DNA from: Naegleria gruberi
Lineage: Eukaryota
NCBI GenBank assembly: GCA_000004985.1
Contig: GG738847.1
Reading direction: 5' to 3' (one strand)
DNA length: 64,000 nt
Shown: in pieces, positions 39,181 through 62,883 of the stretch
Layout of the letters: the number at the start of each line of letters is the position of its first letter
How positions within the stretch are numbered: position 1 is the first letter of the stretch
Position numbers and translations under genes: made by a program
Notes under the pieces: generated by a model
Database searches by the model: none
What the model was told of the DNA's origin: nothing
Seen by the model: the letters and a program-made list of their open reading frames with translations, nothing else

Positions 39181-41260
39181 TTAATAATAATCATGATAAT
39201 CTCTAATTTGACCATTCCAAAAAGAGCACAAATCTCTAAAATCCTCTTGAGTGGCAAACATCTGAGCTCCCCTAAATCCCTCGTTCGAATCAGTAGAATG
39301 AACAATAGTTACATTCGGTAAAATTTTAGAAACTTCTTCAGCCCATCCATTTTCTGATCCTACCAATATTACATTTTTTACCTGTTCAATAACATCCATC
39401 CTCTTGGCCCTCAATACTTCTTTTAATCCTTTTTTGAACTCCTTTTCTATTGTCCTGTTTGAATCCACTTCATAAATGTCTCCAGCAAATGAGAAGAAAT
39501 TCAAAACCACACTGATGGTAATTGTGTTTACATCCTTCTCTATTACTATACAATGACTAATACTGTGATAGTATGCTATCATAGTATGTCTTGAAAGTAA
39601 ACAAACTGCAGGAACTTGCGTTTTCAATACCAAATCAATAAAATTGCTCAATTTTTTCATTTTCAGATATTTTGGAGGGATTGAGATTAATAATGGATGG
39701 CTTGGTGTGAAATTAATTTCTTCACAAACTTTGGAGAAAAATGTTCCAATGTTCATGGCTGTTACACGATAATCTTCTGCAGTTAAATAATCAAATACAT
39801 TTCTCTGGTCAGAACCCCTTCTACCAAGCATGGCATCTGAATAGCTGTAAAAGTTAAAGCTATTAAGGTATTGAGATATTGAGAAATTTCAACTCGTATA
39901 ATACTTACTGGCCTCCTGTATATCTACCCACATAGGGCTCAGTCGTTTTTGGAGTTTCATCACTGAAAAATCCAAAAGTTGCAACCTCACTGGTTATATC
40001 AATACAGATAGGTTTAAAATTGCGTTCAGTGAAATTTCTAACTCTAGCAGCATGATACCAATCTGTGAGTGGTTCTTTTTCACATAATTTAAGATAGGTA
40101 TTTCCATTCCAATATTTCTTGTACACTGCTTTCCATAAAATGGGCGATCTTGCAAGATGATTCAAATATCTACTCAATTGCAAACCAACAGAACATATTT
40201 CACTCTCTGAAAGAAAAGTGAATATGTTTAAAATAATCTCCTCTGGTAGAACTGTCAGATTATCATTCTTGTCGTTTTCAACTGGACCTTCCAATATACA
40301 GTATTGCCTATTTAACAAATATTCAAAGGTTTTACCACTCTTCACAAGCAGCCTCTGCCCAGCAAAATACTTTTCTGAAGATCCATAAACATCCCCACTC
40401 TTTTCAAGAGTTTCACTTTCCTTAAAAGCTTGCCCAATTTGTTGGTAAGTTTCTGATTGTTCAAAATTGTTATCTCTTGGAATTGAATTATTATCCACTC
40501 TGAGATACATAATTTCAGTTCTTAAAATATACTTGATTCCACTAATTACAGAACATCCTTCATGATAAAAATCTTGATTAAATAGAGCCAATTTACCAAC
40601 TGAAGGTTTCAAAGTATGATGAAGGTTGAAAGTATCGTCGTTTGGATCAGAGAAGAATTTGGTTTCTCCACCATTGAAATCCTGATTCAAATAGATCAGT
40701 AATGTGTAAATACTTCTCTCATTTTCACTTCTTCTAAACTGACCGTCGGTATGAATTTTGAAATATTCTCCCTTTTCATACTTGCTAAATCTCATACATT
40801 CATTAACTCCACAAGCTACCCATCTTCCTCTGCTGTCCAACCCATACGGGGCAATTGATTTTCCAATCTGATCTAGATCAATCTTGTTCTTTAGTCTATT
40901 AAATATCAAATCGGCCAACTTGTTATCTGTAACCAGTTCTCTCATGGCATTTCTGTGTTCCTTTGGATATTCATCTTCAAGAGATTGAAAATTGGAACAC
41001 TTTTTAATCAAATCTCTGCATTCATCATCGGAAAAGAAATTCGGAATGACCATCAATCTATTCAATGAATCTTCATAGAAAGGACCGGAAATCTCTAAAG
41101 GCTTCAATTCAAATGACTGTCTATCGTAGGAAAACATTTGCCTGACTTTAATAGAATCATCCGGTTCAATCACTGAATATTTAGATTTAATTCGTTGTTG
41201 TTGGAGATGGTCATTGTTATCATTTCTGGAAGAACTTGAAGCACTGTGTTTATTACCCAT
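39181..41260 (-). CDS. Multidomain protein of ~673 aa: N-terminal MGNKHS (myristoylation consensus) - 2OG-Fe(II) prolyl-4-hydroxylase-like domain - F-box - uncharacterised C-terminal domain. 2 exons: 39909-41260 and 39181-39844, with a 64-nt GTAAGT…TTTTACAG intron.
   Basis: P4H-type motifs are HTDGQF…RSIYTLLIYLNQDFNGGETKFF…FYHEG (HxD…H facial triad). The F-box is LPEEIILNIFTFLSESEICSVGLQLSRYLNHLARSPILWK. The junction …GRYTGG(H)|YSDAMLGRRG… is in phase, with the split codon CA|C. Confidence 0.6.
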
Positions 41261-55758: not shown

Positions 55759-55830
55759 CACTGTTCTTTCTAATTTGAGTGAAGATTCTTACCATGTATA
55801 TTGTTGATTATTGTAACTATATGTTTATTG

Positions 55831-56430
55831 ATGATATCAGGTCAAAAAAGAGCCATTGGAAGTGCTGCTTACGCTGCCCATACAATGTCCTATGAAGTTC
55901 TTTTACAATTTTTGCAATCACAAGCAAGAGCATCATATAATTATGATATATTATTCAATCATCTTTTTGGTATACCAAAAACTAATGATTTGAAAATGAG
56001 ATTTTCATTGTATCTTGAAAAGAAGCACATTTCCATGATTTGTGTGAAATTGGAAGGTCTTGAACATATTATTTCAACGACACCTCCCAATGAAGTTGTG
56101 GAGATTTTGCAAGACTTCTTTGAGAGAGTTGAATTTGTATCAAAATCTACTAGTAGTTTAATGGAACCTTCAGACAATTTCACAATTTCAATTGCATTCA
56201 ATGCATCCAAAGAACAATCAATGCATGAGGAAAGAGCAGTCAAAGCTTGTGTAGATTTGAGCTCAAGGTTGGCAGACTTACAAAAAAACAAATGGAATCA
56301 GATGGCCAATAGTCACTCTTTGAATACTTGTCAGTTTAGGTTAGCTATTTATGTTCAACAATGTTTGTGTGGAAATGTGGGGACTAATGATAAAAGATTG
56401 TTCAAAATTTTAGAAAATCTAAATATATAA
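55831..56430 (+). CDS. Degenerate adenylyl/guanylyl-cyclase-homology-domain (pseudo-cyclase-like) protein, ~199 aa.
   Basis: The pattern aligns to the class III cyclase catalytic core: MICVKLEGLEHIIS…PNEVVEILQDFFERVEFVS…HEERAVKACVDLSSRLA…FRLAIYVQQCLCGNVGTNDKRLF matches FADIVGFTxLxS…AxELVxLLNELFxxFDELA…HAxxxVExGLDM…xRVGLHTGxVxxGVxG. The metal-binding Asp positions are replaced (K/E). Head-to-head with the RGS gene, ~72 bp between the two ATGs. Confidence 0.35.
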   Translation: MISGQKRAIGSAAYAAHTMSYEVLLQFLQSQARASYNYDILFNHLFGIPKTNDLKMRFSLYLEKKHISMICVKLEGLEHIISTTPPNEVVEILQDFFERVEFVSKSTSSLMEPSDNFTISIAFNASKEQSMHEERAVKACVDLSSRLADLQKNKWNQMANSHSLNTCQFRLAIYVQQCLCGNVGTNDKRLFKILENLNI

Positions 56431-56604
56431 CAGATTACGCAAGAAAATTCCAAATAGGAGTGGTTTGTGATCTAATATTTTGCTAGTAAGGTTGCTCGAT
56501 TCTCTTTCCATACAAGATTTGTTTCATTTATTAATCTTCAAAATGATAATAATACTGTGAAAAATAGAAAAGTGTTTGAAATAGGAGCAAAAATTAAAGT
56601 GTCT

Positions 56605-57460
56605 CTATGAATTAGCAAATAAATCAATTAGATTGTGGAATGGCTTTACAATTTTAAATGAAGAGAATACACCAAGAAGAACTCCCATCACAACAATAAC
56701 AATAGATGATGCCAGAGCTGCAATGATAGCAATAATCATGGTTCCTAGATAGTTCCATTGAGGAACTGAAAATACAAATAACCTGTCAAGAAGCAGTGTC
56801 ATTGGGAAAATAAGGAATCATCATACTTACCAATTTACATTAGCAGAATTACATAACCTGTACATTAAAAAATCTGTCCCCGAAAGATAAAAACTTGAAT
56901 GAATCGCAGCTAAGTGAGTCCAACTTGCTTTGATACCTCGTATATATAAAGTTACCAACAGTTTCTACTTCTAAAACACCAAAATTTGTTGCCTTCTTAC
57001 GCTCTTGATTTCCCTTATCATCCCACTTGGCTACAGGAACTTCAGGATAACTAGAGGCCACGATAAACTCAGTTTCAATTTCAATGACAAAGGCAAGTGA
57101 ACCAGTTATTTAACTTGTGATTTCCTTCAGATAGCTACTAATTGTAGCCACAGAAATATCAAAACCAAAATACCAATCAAAGTTGAATCCTGTGGCCGTT
57201 TGATTTCTAGATGGTCTTGAATTGACCAAACTCATAAAGGTAATGGAAGGAAGTGTTGGGTCAGTGTAGGAGAGCGTAAAAGTTGGTTTGTTCACTTGGT
57301 CCGATGCCACTCCTAGAATGTAACTCATATCAAATGGTGGTAACTGTACATCTGGTTCCCTAGATTGTGTATGACAATATTCATACAATGTCATATTATC
57401 ACAATAGGTCCAAAACTGACCTGTTGAATTCACAAACAATATGCTTGGAATTCTCACCAT
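56605..57460 (-). CDS. Predicted single-pass membrane protein assembled from 3 ORF segments (57110-57460, 56849-57061, 56605-56802). It is interrupted by an in-frame TAA at 57110-57112 and has an unresolved 3' junction.
   Basis: The 116-aa and 70-aa ORFs are in the same frame with 16 open codons between (…KEITS*ITGSLAFVIEIETEFIVASSYPEV…). The last segment encodes a TM helix GTMIIAIIAALASSIVIVVMGVLLGVF plus a short tail. GTGAGA and GTAAGT candidate donors are nearby, but no phase-consistent splice model is found. Confidence 0.35.
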
Positions 57461-58170
57461 TCATCATCTTTCCCTTATTTCCTTCGTATGGATCTCCAAC
57501 ATACGAATCTATCATTAAAGTGGAGAGGAATTGGTATTAAGATTTGAAAATCTTGTAGGTGATCAGGTTAATCCAATCAGTGTTCGCATAATCCAAGTCC
57601 CACTAAAAGTTTACATCCTTTTAAATCATACTTGGGTTTTCGGGAGATTTTACCAACATTCAATATAAAATAAAAAATAAATACAGACACTTAGATTTGA
57701 GAATCCAAATTATATATTTTATCTTGAGATAATCTCTTATTTGTTATTCCAAGAGATGATCCTCGCCAAAAACTACACATTAATATTGCGAGTCCCAAAG
57801 CATGACATTTGACAGTTGCTGAGGGATGTGTTTGACTTGTATACGTGAACATCATTCTATATTACCTTATAATATCGTTGGTTCATGTATTGCTCTCTTT
57901 ATCACTAAATAAAAAGTTGAATGATGTATAGACAACTTTCGTGTAAAAACTTGTTCTCCAGACATGCTCATCTCCTAAATGAAAAGATAAAAATCTTTGA
58001 ACAAAGTGCGCCAGGTTTCGAGATGAAAAAGTTGTCAATATTTCATTATTCTGTTATCTCTAATGATGGCAGGTTTTGGGATAACAATTTCAAGGATTAG
58101 GAAATTGAGTGTGTTTGCATAGAATCACAATACATCAACAAGCAAAGTTCTTTTAGTTGCAGCAAACATT

Positions 58171-60288
58171 TTAATTCAATTTTCTTACAATTAAGGGCCA
58201 ACCAACTTGTATCACTGCATACTTATGAATGCTTTTTGATTTGTCAGCATCATTTTCATATTGAGCATATTGTTTGACTTGAGAAATTGCAGAATTCAAA
58301 ATTGATCTGGCTACAACTTTCTCTTTGGCATGAGTAAGTACTTCCATTTCTAATAATTCTTCATCAGTTTGTTTAGATAAATCTTTAAATATATTTTTAA
58401 AAATTTGCGGATTCCAATATTCAATATTGGAATATTTTGTTAAAGAATTTGGTCTAATACGTTTGAATTCAATTATTAATACTTTTTTAGAAGTTCTTAT
58501 CACAAGATCAGCACGTTTGATGTATTCCTTATTGTTAGAATTCTTTACATGATATTCCTTTTCAGCTTGAATTTTCAATTCTTTGTTTCTAAATAAACAA
58601 TATGCTCTTAATGCAGATTCAATACTTGCTTGTAAACCTCCTTCAGACATTGAATTGTCATAAATAGTTTCTTGTTTTTCTAAAATATTATTGAGTAACA
58701 TTCTCAAATTATCTTGGGTAGGTTCATTAATAAAAGTTGATACATCATTTTCATGTAGAGATATAAGTCTACGTAACTGCTCTAAATATTGGACTTTTGC
58801 AATTTCATTTGGAATTAACAATTGTTTTGGGTTCATCTGTTTTGATGATTCTTTTGTGAAGGTAACCATACCGTGATAATACATGAATGATAAAGCATTA
58901 TCACGAATCTTTTGTATATCTTCTTCATTGGATGGTGGATCAATAATCTCTCTTAATTTCAGTGAAGGATAAATTGACTCTGTTACTTCTACATAATCTT
59001 TTGAAAGTAATTGTTGAATAATATCATTCGATACAACTGATGATGCCAAAGTTGCAAAAACGTTCTCACTGATCATTGTGTTGGTATCTGTTAATATTGA
59101 TAATGGAATTTCTTGTTTTTGTAGAACAGCATTTCTGAAAGGTTCATCTTTTACAAGTTTGTTCAAAAAGAACATTGAAAGAGTTGTGTTGAATAGAGCA
59201 TGTTTTGAACCAGGAAAATGATAACCTTTATAATACTTTTTCATGGTTGAAATGGTAATATCTTGATCATTTCCAATAATATCAATGTTATTTAATGCCA
59301 TTCTCAGATCATTTTCTGTAAAACCAACCAAACCACCAAATATCTTATCAAAGGAAATATTACTGGAAACATTATATCCAGATGCATCTGCAAGAGCAAT
59401 AGGAGTGATACCAGTGATGATACTACGAAAATCTTGTAAACCAACACCGGAAGACTCTTTCAATCTTTCAAAGAAAGAACGAATTGGTGAAGATGTTGGA
59501 TCTCCTCTCTTTCCTTCAACTATTAATTGATATTTTTCAGGATTTTCAAACATTAATTTGTTTGCAAATCTATCATATTCATCAATTAATATCATTAATT
59601 TGGCTCCTTTTTCTATTAATATAGCCACCAGAGTTGCTAAAGTATCGAACGAATTTTTGTGATTAATATCCATCTCTTTAGTTAATTCATAGTAACGTAA
59701 AAAACCATAAATGGATGTGTTTACTTTCTCATGAAGCCGTTGATTAATATCTTCCGTTGTACCATCAACTTGAATAGAAAAATCTAACTTTAAAACATGA
59801 TATTGATTCTTTCCAGGTGTCCAATTATTTTCATCACCAATCCATAAACCAGAAAATAATTCATCAAATTCATCTTTCTTGTTAATATCATAATATGATG
59901 AAAGCATTGATAATAATAGTGATTTTCCCCATCTCGGAGGACGAACAAAAAATAATTGTTTTCCACTTTCTTCTAATAGAGGAATTAAATTAGTTTTATC
60001 AACATAAAATTGTTTACTTCTTCTGATGGAAGCAAAATCTGATTCACCATATGGAAAATATGGCACCAACAAATTTCCGTCACCAATATTTTTAAATTTA
60101 ATATTTTCAACATTATTTGTTGTTGGTTTTAATGTATTTGAATAGTTTTTAGTTTGATTCACTCTATTAATTGTAAACTTGTTAATATCATTAGTTAAAT
60201 TATTAATTTTTAATATTGATCTATTGATTTTGGGTGATGCAGTAAATAACTGCAATCTATTGATTTTACGAAGGAAGGTATGTTTCAT
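58171..60288 (-). CDS. Predicted AAA-ATPase-like (PF09820-type N-domain) plus PD-(D/E)XK nuclease-like (PDDEXK_9-type C-domain) protein, 705 aa in a single exon.
   Basis: The N-domain signature is FYVDKTNLIPLLEESGKQLFFVRPPRWGKSLLLSMLSSYYD…HVLKLDFS… (consensus …RPRRFGKSL…). The C-terminal …NKEYIKRADLVIRTSKKVLIIEFKRIR… is the PD-(D/E)XK core (D…(I/V)EFK). It is preceded by an ~100-aa Asn/Lys-rich low-complexity leader. It is flanked by the two largest ORF-free intervals in the window (~57.5-58.2 kb and 60.3-61.6 kb). Confidence 0.75.
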   Translation of the reverse strand: MKHTFLRKINRLQLFTASPKINRSILKINNLTNDINKFTINRVNQTKNYSNTLKPTTNNVENIKFKNIGDGNLLVPYFPYGESDFASIRRSKQFYVDKTNLIPLLEESGKQLFFVRPPRWGKSLLLSMLSSYYDINKKDEFDELFSGLWIGDENNWTPGKNQYHVLKLDFSIQVDGTTEDINQRLHEKVNTSIYGFLRYYELTKEMDINHKNSFDTLATLVAILIEKGAKLMILIDEYDRFANKLMFENPEKYQLIVEGKRGDPTSSPIRSFFERLKESSGVGLQDFRSIITGITPIALADASGYNVSSNISFDKIFGGLVGFTENDLRMALNNIDIIGNDQDITISTMKKYYKGYHFPGSKHALFNTTLSMFFLNKLVKDEPFRNAVLQKQEIPLSILTDTNTMISENVFATLASSVVSNDIIQQLLSKDYVEVTESIYPSLKLREIIDPPSNEEDIQKIRDNALSFMYYHGMVTFTKESSKQMNPKQLLIPNEIAKVQYLEQLRRLISLHENDVSTFINEPTQDNLRMLLNNILEKQETIYDNSMSEGGLQASIESALRAYCLFRNKELKIQAEKEYHVKNSNNKEYIKRADLVIRTSKKVLIIEFKRIRPNSLTKYSNIEYWNPQIFKNIFKDLSKQTDEELLEMEVLTHAKEKVVARSILNSAISQVKQYAQYENDADKSKSIHKYAVIQVGWPLIVRKLN

Positions 60289-61631
60289 ATTTTTGATGAT
60301 TTTTTTTTTAAGCTATTTGATGGCACCGTTGTGATGATTGATGATTGTGATGGTGTGGAAGAGGAAATCCTACAAAGTTACATTGTTGGTTGGGTTCTAA
60401 TGTTTTGCTTGTGATTCTGAAATTGTCTCATTGCCGGTTTTGAGATGAGTAATGTTTGGTAACGTAATTGTGTTTGGACTTCAAGAAGATAAACAACCAG
60501 GTATGAAAGTAAACTTATCTCTGTAAATTTAAGGTAACAAATGATCATTTGATAATGTGAACTTGGACATCTTCATTTCTTAAATCAAGAATGTAGTTTT
60601 AAAGTATGACAACCACAGAAAACTAATTTTTGCTCTAGTGCCATATTGTTATTGGTTACCATAAACAACCACTCATGGTTTCATGCTTGTTTGTTTAGTT
60701 AGTTGGAAGTTCATGCAGTGATTGAACATTAATGGCATGGTGAGGGTTGTTAACCACACTTTTATGTATAGTTCCCAAAACTTCCATCATATTGACATTA
60801 TCCAATGGACCAATGTGTAATAGGAGGAAGCTTGCTAGTTAATTCAAATGGTTTATTTAAATTTAAGACTTGAAATAAATCTATCCCTCACATAACTTCG
60901 GCAGAAATCTTGTCTGACTCATCAGAACATCCTAATTCAGGAACTTCGCTTACATCCTCATCAAAAGACGTATCCATGATGTCAAAATCCTGAAGTGAAA
61001 TAAATCTCAATGAATCTAGATTTTTCAAAAATTAATGGGAGACGCAACTCAAGACGCAGTCTGACTAGGCTCCAGCGTGTTGTTTTATTAAAGTCCTACA
61101 GATATTAAATCAACAATGGAATCTCTCAAGTTATTCTCAGAACTTGTAAATAGAAATGCTTTGGGATCCCATTCTTTTTGATCTTCACACTAAAAAATTA
61201 GTAATGGAAGAGAAACTCAAATTGTATGAGATTCAAATATCTACCAAATGCCAGTGCAAAGAAAATAATTGAGGAAATATAAATCACCACTACATTTCGC
61301 AAAATTAGTAAAATTGAAAAGAATGTTGTTTTATCAAATATTAAAGATTGTTCATGTAAAATTTACATTCATATCATTGTCCATTCACAATCGCCATGGA
61401 AACAATGTGGACAACTATCATTTTTGACACAAGAGACTTCAGTCCATCCTTCTTCACACATGCAAGTCGATTGTTCCGTTAAAACAAGTTTCTTTCATTG
61501 TTCAACATGATAACAGTTCTTGTTGTACAGTCAAAAACAAGATACTCAACCATAATTTGATGTCAATTAACATTGACCTTGCAAGGCCAATTGAAAAGTC
61601 TTGATATGGAAAACATCAAGTGAATCCTACT

Positions 61632-62729
61632 CTACCACCATTTTTTCTTTCTCTGTTTCTTGATCAATGCCTTGGTTGACTTTGAATCTAGCTCCACAAC
61701 TTGATGTAATAATTTCAAATCGTTTTCATTTGAAAATCGTACCATTCGCTCACTTTCTTCAAATAATAAATTAACACATTCTCCACTTTTTGCACTCGTT
61801 ACAATAATTTTAGTATTTAACAAATGATAGGCCTCAATTAGTGACTCAATCACCTTTCTAAATTCTTCAATTTTCCTCATTCTTTCCTTGTAATCTTGCA
61901 ATAAATCAACCTTATTGAGTACAAATATTATTGGTATGTCATTGATTGATTGATAATTGGAACCAATTGAGTTCAAGAAAGATACACATTCTTCTACTGT
62001 TTTTATATTTTCTAAAGAGGAAACCAAAATGAAGCAATCAGTATTTCTATGATGATACTGACCTCTCAGTGGTCTGAATTCTTCCTGTCCAGCTGTCAAT
62101 TGTCGTGAAATATTTCTTTTTTTGAATTAATTGCTTACCTGTATCGAGAATATCAAATAAAATTGGAATTCCATCAACATTATATTGTTTAGAATAATTA
62201 TCTTCTATCGTTGGATCATTATTCTCAAATGCATAATTATTTGTCACAAATCGAAGTGTCAAAGATGATTTTCCTTCATTATTTTGTAAAATTTCAAACA
62301 CAGAAATATTTCATACTCACCAACATACTCCAATCCATTCAATGTCACATTCAAAGTTTTAATTTCCTTCTTATTTTTTGGAATTATTGAGATTCGGTTC
62401 AAATATCTGATTAATAAAATCTTTCGTTTCAATTCATTCTTTTCAATCATTTTAATTTTTAATTCATCAAATTGATTCAAATAAATTTGGCGAATATTAA
62501 ATTCAGTGATGAATAATTTCCAATAATAATTGTTGAAATAATTTTTCATTTCTTCCATTTCGTTTAATTTGTTAGAAAGTGAGTTGAATTTGCAAATATT
62601 GTACAGAGATAGCTTTCTAATATTCGAATCTAAACTATCCAAATGATCGGAATCAACAACCAAGAATGATAAGATGAGAAAAAGCAACTCTTGTGGAAGT
62701 TGTGAAAACTTGGTTTTGTGTGGGCGCAT
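61632..62729 (-). CDS. Ras-family small GTPase with an ~140-aa F-box-like N-terminal extension, ~331 aa in 3 exons: 62331-62729, 62139-62274, 61632-62092. Introns are 56 and 46 nt.
   Basis: Exon junctions are GTGAGT…AATGAAG and GTAAGC…TGACAG, in phase. The G-domain has a P-loop NGLEYVG|GKSSL (G-x5-GKS, one residue longer than canonical), switch I DPTIEDNY, G3 DTAGQEEF (split across an intron), G4 NKVD and G5 SAK. The C-terminus is polybasic KKQRKKKWW without CAAX. The N-terminus is LPQELLFLILSFLVVDSDHL (F-box-like). Confidence 0.7.
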
Positions 62730-62809: not shown

Positions 62810-62883
62810 TACAGCGAGCGGGGCTTGAACCCGCGACCTTAAGCGTGTTAGGCTTACGATCTAACCAACTGATCTATCGCTGC
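62810..62883 (-). tRNA. tRNA-Val (anticodon AAC), 74 nt, no intron, CCA not encoded.
   Basis: Reverse complement GCAGCGATAGATCAGTTGGTTAGATCGTAAGCCTAACACGCTTAAGGTCGCGGGTTCAAGCCCCGCTCGCTGTA folds as a canonical cloverleaf. The 7-bp acceptor stem has G1·U72. D-stem is GATC/GATC, anticodon stem TAAGC/GCTTA, loop CUAACAC (U33, AAC, A37), T-stem GCGGG/CCCGC, T-loop TTCAAGC, discriminator A. Confidence 0.9.

What the first reader, a model, noticed from the sequence alone, without database searches (positions are those of the whole stretch)
58171..60288. Prokaryote-type AAA-ATPase-like / PD-(D/E)XK nuclease gene embedded in a eukaryotic locus
Almost all known members of this two-domain family are bacterial or archaeal, with eukaryotic representatives confined to a few lineages where they are massively expanded. 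It combines an N-terminal predicted AAA-ATPase-like domain (RPPRWGKSL Walker-A-like block) with a C-terminal PD-(D/E)XK restriction-endonuclease fold. Here it is intron-less, has its own Asn/Lys-rich leader, and sits between the two largest gene-free intervals of the window. That layout fits either a horizontally acquired selfish element or an expanded lineage-specific family. The function of this family is unknown in any eukaryote.
Basis: partly seen in the sequence, partly recalled or inferred. Interest (0 to 1): 0.65.

Follow-up and report, generated by a model that had tools for sequence, protein, structure and literature searches.

The report
Organelle-type bacterial ATPase-nuclease gene in Naegleria
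This is a real, intact Naegleria gruberi gene for a bacterial-type ATP-binding DNA-cutting protein; it belongs to an old branch of that family found in several amoebae and carries an added front end that looks like a mitochondrial import signal, which is a moderately interesting lead, not a recent foreign insertion.

The parts
58171..60288 (-). Complete intronless CDS (705 aa plus stop) = NAEGRDRAFT_78045
60055..60288 (-). N-terminal extension, aa 1-78: no acidic residue in the first 33 aa, which hold 7 K/R; Asn/Lys/Thr-rich; disordered in AF2 with short helices at 2-12 and 32-44. Putative mitochondrial presequence. K-N-Y-S at aa 47-50 aligns with R-x-F-S of the orthologs.
59386..60054 (-). 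AAA+ ATPase core (PF09820), aa 79-301
   Evidence: Foldseek hits to Orc1/Cdc6 and RFC
59920..59943 (-). Deviant Walker A RPPRWGKS (aa 116-123); R116, R119, G121 and K122 are invariant in 86 homologs
59584..59796 (-). Paralog-variable block, aa 165-235 (strand beta2, helices 178-199 and 213-226, up to the Walker B strand). About 29 of the 36 differences from paralog 62226 fall here. Over codons 161-240, dS is 0.68 against about 0.01 in the flanks. It lies where the initiator-specific motif sits in Orc1/Cdc6 (inferred from topology).
59572..59592 (-). Walker B ILIDEYD (aa 233-239); D236 and D239 invariant, E237 at least 90% conserved
58645..59385 (-). Lid and helical linker region (aa 302-548), including the conserved YYHG.LT...L.IPN motif. 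Foldseek alignments to Orc1/Cdc6 span 438-496 columns for targets of 366-396 residues.
58174..58644 (-). PD-(D/E)XK nuclease domain (aa 549-705) with motif I E549, motif II D594, motif III E607-F-K609 and motif IV Q670
58312..58455 (-). Insertion specific to the eukaryotic clade, between the E-x-K strand and the motif-IV helix (aa 612-659)
   Evidence: eukaryote-type median 63 residues, bacterial median 20, no overlap
60313..61634 (.). Upstream ORF-free interval (1322 bp): unique sequence, GC 0.33. Similarity to the paralogous or strain locus L001 ends near 60607.
57461..58173 (.). Downstream ORF-free interval (713 bp), 97-99% identical to L001
55932..60607 (.). Segment shared at 90-99% identity with metagenomic contig L001, which carries the 95%-identical protein P0002. 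This is the minimum extent of the duplicated or strain-shared unit.

Best explanation
This is a resident nuclear gene of Naegleria gruberi, one of at least four near-identical paralogs. It encodes a eukaryote-adapted member of the bacterial DUF1703 family (PF09820 ATPase plus PDDEXK_9 nuclease). SHOWN: the protein consists of (i) a 78-residue basic extension with no acidic residue in its first 33 positions, (ii) an Orc1/Cdc6-like AAA+ module with the family's deviant Walker A (RPPRWGKS) and Walker B (DEYD), (iii) a helical linker, and (iv) a PD-(D/E)XK domain with all catalytic residues intact plus a clade-specific insertion. It belongs to a monophyletic eukaryote-type clade that is patchily present in amoeboid protists, an aphelid and a red alga. 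The N. gruberi copies evolve by segmental duplication and gene conversion that leaves old sequence cassettes in place. INFERRED: an ancestral bacterial gene entered eukaryotes long ago and acquired an organelle-targeting presequence. The protein is imported into the mitochondrion, where the ATP-bound AAA+ module binds DNA (probably mtDNA) and gates cleavage by the C-terminal nuclease. The paralog-variable helix-loop-helix between strand beta2 and Walker B, and the variable nuclease domain of paralog 62270, would tune substrate preference.
Against: Localisation rests on sequence features alone; no dedicated predictor could be run. None of the four copies appears in the held part of the N. gruberi mitochondrial proteome table, but that file is truncated. 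The N. gruberi leader has Lys, not Arg, at the putative -3 position, and Asn-rich low complexity is common in AT-rich genomes. Nine of 33 clade members have acidic N-termini; most are metagenomic gene calls. No member of the family has been assayed biochemically or solved, so ATP hydrolysis, DNA binding and cleavage are all inferred. Published analysis says the canonical sensor 1 and sensor 2 residues are missing. The nuclease signature is degenerate in 20 of 43 eukaryote-type proteins, so cleavage may not be the conserved function.
Confidence: 0.55

Rival explanations
1. It is a cytosolic or nuclear innate-immunity nuclease of amoebae. On this view it is a stand-alone ATPase-nuclease that restricts DNA from giant viruses or intracellular bacteria, and the N-terminal extension is not an organelle signal.
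Against: There is no PADLOC hit for this protein or for three bacterial relatives. Bacterial homologs sit among housekeeping genes, not in defence islands. dN/dS in the variable block is about 0.4, not above 1. The presequence-like extensions are shared across distant lineages. The fold matches are generic for the PD-(D/E)XK superfamily.
Confidence: 0.2
2. It is an organelle-targeted ATPase and DNA-binding protein whose nuclease activity is dispensable or lost, for example a nucleoid or replication-initiator-like factor. The PD-(D/E)XK domain would serve only for DNA binding or oligomerisation.
For: In the eukaryote-type clade the ATPase residues are intact in 42 of 43 sequences, but the full nuclease signature survives in only 23 of 43; in bacteria it survives in 42 of 43. 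The fold resembles the Orc1/Cdc6 initiators.
Against: All sequenced N. gruberi copies, including the divergent C-terminus of paralog 62270, keep E, D, E-x-K and Q. So do N. fowleri, Balamuthia, Clydonella and Pyropia.
Confidence: 0.15
3. It is a recently acquired selfish or mobile bacterial element, or bacterial contamination of the assembly.
For: The family is prokaryotic in origin and is known to transfer repeatedly into eukaryotes, namely whiteflies, psyllids and mealybugs. The gene is intronless, multi-copy and flanked by unusually long ORF-free intervals.
Against: The best bacterial identity is only about 32-34%. GC3 (0.18) and codon usage are native. No TIR or LTR flanks the gene and no transposase is nearby. 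It lies on a 941-kb scaffold between Ras and RGS genes. Orthologs exist throughout Heterolobosea, and the eukaryotic clade is monophyletic.
Confidence: 0.05
4. It is a decaying duplicate or pseudogene with no function.
For: There are several near-identical copies and one truncated gene model, P0155.
Against: The ORF is full length with every conserved motif intact. dN is below dS in all regions compared with L001. Orthologs are conserved at 58-60% identity in Willaertia and N. fowleri.
Confidence: 0.03

Closest known systems
Bacterial/archaeal DUF1703 proteins (Pfam PF09820 AAA-ATPase_like + PF08011 PDDEXK_9; Knizewski et al. 2007, PMC1913061)
   Same: The same four-part architecture, the same deviant Walker A (RPxRxGKS) and DEYD Walker B, and the same nuclease motifs I-IV. 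Full-length homology reaches E about 1e-51 to 1e-64. The family tends to be multi-copy with intragenic recombination among paralogs.
   Different: This protein is a eukaryotic nuclear gene. It adds a 78-residue N-terminal extension that bacteria lack, carries an insertion of about 40 residues inside the nuclease domain, and fails the PF08011 threshold. It forms a separate clade with 98% bootstrap support, in which the nuclease site is often degenerate.
AAA-ATPase-like domain genes transferred from bacteria into Hemiptera (Bemisia, Trialeurodes, psyllids, mealybugs; PMC11800479, PMC11776215)
   Same: The same Pfam family, found in a eukaryotic nuclear genome and multi-copy.
   Different: The insect genes are described as several independent, relatively recent transfers linked to endosymbionts. 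None appears among the 120 best hits of the Naegleria protein or of its clade profile, so the amoebal clade is a separate and older acquisition. No organelle-type extension has been reported for the insect genes.
Orc1/Cdc6 replication initiators and RFC clamp-loader subunits (AAA+)
   Same: They are the best structural matches of the N-terminal ~420 residues: 1w5s_B at E 1e-4, followed by 2v1u_A, 2qby and 7tji_D. There is a helical insertion between beta2 and Walker B, where the initiator-specific motif lies (inferred from the topology).
   Different: There is no sequence-level membership: Pfam reports only PF09820 and sequence identity is 8-11%. The Walker A is non-canonical, and Orc1/Cdc6 proteins lack the C-terminal nuclease.
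PD-(D/E)XK nucleases: Wolbachia CinB, Cas4, BpuSI; mitochondrial MGME1, DNA2 and EXO5
   Different: Sequence identity is only 10-21%, and the domain partners differ. There are no Cas4-type Fe-S cysteines or RecB-type helicase partners.

Membership tests
DUF1703 (PF09820 + PF08011) | PF09820 AAA-ATPase_like HMM score above the gathering threshold | tested here: met
   142 bits against a cut-off of 26.1, E 2.4e-41, aa 79-301
DUF1703 (PF09820 + PF08011) | PF08011 PDDEXK_9 HMM score above the gathering threshold | tested here: not met
   16 bits against 25.5, E 0.012, partial match only. The cause is a clade-specific insertion: 56-98 residues against 10-37 in bacteria.
DUF1703 (PF09820 + PF08011) | C-terminal restriction-endonuclease-like fold with motifs I (E), II (D), III (E-x-K) and IV (Q) | tested here: met
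   [not shown]
DUF1703 (PF09820 + PF08011) | Deviant Walker A RPxRxGKS and Walker B DEYD | tested here: met
   RPPRWGKS at aa 116-123 and DEYD at aa 236-239, as defined in PMC1913061
DUF1703 (PF09820 + PF08011) | Full-length homology and common ancestry with the bacterial members | tested here: met
   Bacterial proteins with both domains align over 41-66% of the query at E 1e-16 to 1e-51. tblastn hits in over 578 bacterial loci reach aa 701 in some. A single tree gives a eukaryote/bacteria split of 98/100.
Orc1/Cdc6 initiator AAA+ family | Sequence-profile membership (Cdc6/ORC Pfam models) and a canonical GxxGxGK[ST] Walker A | tested here: not met
   The Pfam scan at E up to 1 lists only PF09820 and PF08011, and the Walker A is RPPRWGKS. 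The resemblance is structural only.
Orc1/Cdc6 initiator AAA+ family | Sensor 1, sensor 2 and arginine-finger residues | not tested
   Literature on the bacterial family reports them missing or relocated. They were not examined in the model here.
Mitochondrial presequence-bearing proteins | N-terminal extension relative to prokaryotic homologs, with positive charge and no acidic residues | tested here: met
   The extension is 78 aa against 0-12 in bacteria. The first 33 residues are acid-free with 7 K/R, chance probability 0.009. The same pattern holds in 24 of 33 complete clade members.
Mitochondrial presequence-bearing proteins | Amphipathic helix and an R-2/R-3 processing motif | tested here: inconclusive
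   AF2 predicts helices at 2-12 and 32-44 at low confidence, and the maximum hydrophobic moment is 0.74. N. gruberi has K-N-Y-S where the orthologs have R-x-F-S.
Mitochondrial presequence-bearing proteins | Experimental localisation in mitochondria | tested here: inconclusive
   The four accessions and two peptide strings are absent from the held supplements of PMC8134430, but the proteome table was cut when stored.
Known prokaryotic anti-phage defence systems (PADLOC) | Match to a PADLOC model | tested here: not met
   No hits at E up to 0.1 for this protein or for three bacterial relatives
Mobile element / recent HGT island | Terminal repeats, a transposase or integrase, or anomalous composition | tested here: not met
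   Only short, imperfect chance-level repeats were found. The neighbours are Ras and RGS genes. GC3 and codon distance are within the window's range.

The most novel reading that the evidence does not exclude
A bacterial-derived, Orc1/Cdc6-like ATPase fused to a restriction-type nuclease is imported into the mitochondria of heteroloboseans, several amoebozoans, an aphelid and possibly a red alga. There it acts on mitochondrial DNA as a previously unrecognised genome-maintenance or genome-policing factor. Exchangeable sequence cassettes in the putative DNA-contacting element, maintained by gene conversion among paralogs, would set its targets. It would be another patchily retained mitochondrial system, as the mitochondrial type II secretion system is in Naegleria and some other protists.
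Probability: 0.3. Interest if true: 0.7.

Novelty: new variant of a known kind. Interest (0 to 1): 0.45.

Why it matters
DUF1703 is a large family (over 578 confirmed bacterial loci in one scan) with no assayed member and no solved structure. Its presence in eukaryotes has been discussed only for sap-feeding insects. If the amoebal clade is truly imported into mitochondria, it would add a new nuclease/ATPase to the organelle DNA toolkit of protists, including the relatives of the pathogens Naegleria fowleri and Balamuthia. It would also give the family its first tractable functional context. The contrast between an invariant ATPase site and a frequently degenerate nuclease site in eukaryotes, and the cassette-like mosaicism among N. 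gruberi copies, are specific and testable clues to function. If the extension is not a targeting signal, the finding reduces to an old, domesticated bacterial gene of unknown role, which is common in amoebae.

Tried and rejected
(1) NCBIfam, PADLOC and PDB sequence searches gave nothing useful. The NDUFB10 and Csm2 hits are non-significant (E > 0.01) and were ignored. (2) The mitochondrial proteome look-up in PMC8134430 found no hit, but the table is truncated, so I treated it as inconclusive, not negative. (3) look-up of encoding contigs could not retrieve the N. gruberi scaffold or the other three copies. The extent of the duplication and the dS analysis therefore rest on one metagenomic contig, L001, whose status as a paralog or a strain variant is not settled. 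(4) Synteny with Willaertia and N. lovaniensis is absent; only noise-level HSPs were found. My first impression that the downstream ORF 55801-56430 is a cyclase was not supported by Pfam and I dropped it. (5) A giant-virus vector is not supported: the only viral match is a distant Sylvanvirus protein at 11% identity. (7) Bacterial genomic context shows no conserved partner genes, so there is no guilt-by-association clue. (8) No repeats or RNA genes lie in the flanking ORF-free intervals, apart from a tRNA-Val further upstream. (9) The tree is neighbour-joining on 539 columns, because no maximum-likelihood software was available. Relationships within the clade are not reliable (for example, support for the clade minus the aphelids is only 55/100).

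Full report
OBSERVATION. The window holds a 705-codon ATG-to-stop ORF at exactly 58171-60288 on the minus strand. An in-frame stop lies 8 codons upstream of the ATG, and the next Met is inside the ATPase domain, so M1 is the only workable start. [quoted passage not shown] Pfam gives PF09820 at E 2.4e-41 (aa 79-301). PF08011 reaches only 16 bits against a cut-off of 25.5.

THE ATPASE MODULE. R116, R119, G121, K122, D236 and D239 are invariant and E237 is at least 90% conserved. The motifs RPPRWGKS and DEYD are the family's published deviant Walker A and classical Walker B. The full-length AF2 model is confident (pLDDT 86.7, pTM 0.83), with aa 1-71 disordered. Its best PDB matches are archaeal Orc1/Cdc6 (1w5s_B at E 1e-4; also 2v1u_A and 2qby), yeast Orc4 and RFC subunits, with alignments spanning whole three-domain initiators. 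No solved structure is related by sequence.

A EUKARYOTE-TYPE CLADE. Homologs fall into two groups. The first comprises proteins of about 600-800 aa that score only on PF09820. Its named members are N. fowleri, N. lovaniensis (three proteins), Willaertia magna, Balamuthia mandrillaris, Clydonella, Flabellula, Amoeboaphelidium and Pyropia. The second comprises proteins of about 520-650 aa, nearly all scoring on both PF09820 and PF08011 and taken as bacterial; the named ones are Treponema and Clostridia MAGs. A neighbour-joining tree (86 sequences, 539 columns) separates the two groups with 98/100 bootstrap support, and Heterolobosea with 100/100. Context confirms nuclear eukaryotic residence. 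The Balamuthia gene spans 2676 bp for 709 aa, so it has introns, and it lies next to a copine gene. P0026 lies next to an LTR-retrotransposon pol gene and ankyrin genes. In bacteria the family is very widespread: at least 578 loci across many phyla, with a best identity of about 32-34%. It sits alone among unrelated housekeeping genes, as the 2012 survey noted. It matches no PADLOC model.

THE LEADER. Bacterial proteins begin 0-12 residues before the conserved FPYG motif. Eukaryote-type proteins carry extensions of 25-110 residues. In 24 of 33 complete extensions, at least the first 20 residues lack D/E and are rich in R/K/S/T. The per-sequence chance probability of such acid-free stretches is 0.0002-0.02. 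Examples are MFPVFFRRVALSSAALRRFAATRATPLF (P0026), MLSVRRGAVVPRFARGAGFPRLMSTT (P0031) and the ...IR[RKS]FST... motif of N. fowleri and N. lovaniensis. The last of these aligns with K-N-Y-S-N-T of N. gruberi. The extensions resemble the N-termini of experimentally assigned N. gruberi mitochondrial proteins such as HslU, MGM101 and Twinkle. The sequence is not conserved but its character is, as expected for presequences. This is inference: no predictor was available, and the truncated proteome table neither confirms nor refutes it. A subclade of metagenomic sequences has acidic N-termini.

PARALOGS AND MOSAICISM. The 90%-identity cluster contains four N. gruberi proteins. Three are on the same 941,567-bp scaffold: 78045, 62226 and 62270. 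A partial fourth is on a 7.6-kb contig. A fifth, P0155, is 36% identical and belongs to an older subfamily. Only one copy lies in the window. Paralog 62226 differs from the window protein at 36 positions, about 29 of them in aa 165-235. Paralog 62270 additionally has a diverged C-terminal third that still keeps all catalytic residues. I compared the window with the metagenomic contig L001, which carries the 95%-identical protein P0002. dS is 0.011 for codons 1-160, 0.68 for codons 161-240 and 0.014 for codons 241-705. dN/dS in the block is about 0.4. So an old, selectively maintained cassette sits in copies that are otherwise homogenised, which is the signature of gene conversion or recombination. 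The same behaviour has been reported for bacterial DUF1703 paralogs. The block spans strand beta2, two helices (178-199 and 213-226) and the Walker B strand. In Orc1/Cdc6 and DnaA this position holds the DNA-contacting initiator-specific motif; that is my inference from topology and general knowledge.

GENOMIC SETTING. GC3 is 0.18, within the window range of 0.165-0.368. The codon-usage distance is 0.091, within the range 0.054-0.109. With open frames of at least 80 aa counted, the flanking ORF-free intervals (1322 and 713 bp) are the two largest in the window. They are unique sequence with ordinary GC and contain no Rfam hit. No convincing terminal repeats are present. The neighbours are a Ras-family GTPase and an RGS protein. 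L001 matches the window at 90-99% from 55932 to 60607 and then diverges. The shared unit is therefore a segment of at least 4.7 kb, not a compact element. There is no synteny with Willaertia, which has a tandem pair, or with N. lovaniensis.

MECHANISM. Shown: the domain composition, intact ATP-binding and nuclease residues, the Orc1/Cdc6-like and PD-(D/E)XK folds, clade membership, the presequence-like extension, and paralog mosaicism. Inferred: import into mitochondria, ATP-dependent DNA binding by the AAA+ and linker module, cleavage by the C-terminal domain, and tuning of specificity by the variable cassettes. A notable caveat is that only 23 of 43 eukaryote-type proteins keep the full E-D-E-K-Q signature, against 42 of 43 bacterial ones, while the ATPase residues are intact in 42 of 43. 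The conserved role in eukaryotes may therefore depend on the ATPase and DNA-binding part. The N. gruberi copies themselves look catalytically competent.

COMPARISON AND NOVELTY. The protein is a member of the DUF1703 lineage by every structural and motif criterion, but it fails the PF08011 threshold and differs by three clade-specific features: the extension, the insertion and relaxed conservation of the nuclease site. It works like an Orc1/Cdc6-type switch fused to a restriction-type nuclease, but it is not a member of those families. Transfer of this Pfam family into eukaryotes is documented for whiteflies, psyllids and mealybugs. Those genes do not appear among the best hits here, so the amoebal clade is a separate, older event. 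No paper in the searchable library mentions these locus tags, or eukaryotic protist or mitochondrial members. I rate it a new variant of a known but functionally uncharacterised kind, of moderate interest.

Noticed in passing
window 62810-62883 (-): A tRNA-Val gene (anticodon AAC; Rfam 66.9 bits). It is the only tRNA ARAGORN finds in the 64-kb window and lies just upstream of the F-box-like ORF at 62259-62729.
   Followed up: partly
window 39905-41260 (-) and L001:2-1114 (-): A gene combining 2OG-Fe(II) oxygenase and F-box-like domains. A roughly 76%-identical paralog lies immediately upstream of the ATPase-nuclease copy on contig L001. The two gene families are therefore neighbours at another locus or in another strain, although they are 17 kb apart here.
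   Followed up: partly
window 57290-57379: A 90-bp stretch, a multiple of three, is present in the window but absent from the otherwise 97-99% identical contig L001. It falls inside the 116-aa ORF at 57110-57460 (-), which has no Pfam hit. It could be a short unannotated exon or gene, or simply an indel.
   Followed up: no
L002:7853-9868 and L002:10001-12046 (Willaertia magna): Two family members lie in head-to-tail tandem, 132 bp apart. The P0003 copy has lost the motif II Asp (Arg instead) and the Walker B Glu (Gly instead).
   Followed up: partly
P0155 (N. gruberi, 693,645-bp scaffold; not in the window): A 376-aa gene model equals only the C-terminal half (aa 372-705 equivalent) of a divergent paralog related to N. 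lovaniensis P0006. Either the gene model is truncated or this is an ATPase-less nuclease-only derivative.
   Followed up: partly
[not shown]
   Followed up: no
BFVD entry A0A3G5AHI5 (Sylvanvirus sp.): A 513-aa uncharacterised giant-virus protein aligns over 620 columns with the full-length model (E 1.4e-5, 11% identity). It may be a distant ATPase-nuclease of the same architecture in a virus of protists.
   Followed up: no
window 55801-56430 (+): A 209-aa ORF is 99% conserved in L001 but has no Pfam match. It lies in the segment shared with the paralogous or strain locus and is probably an exon of an unannotated gene.
   Followed up: no
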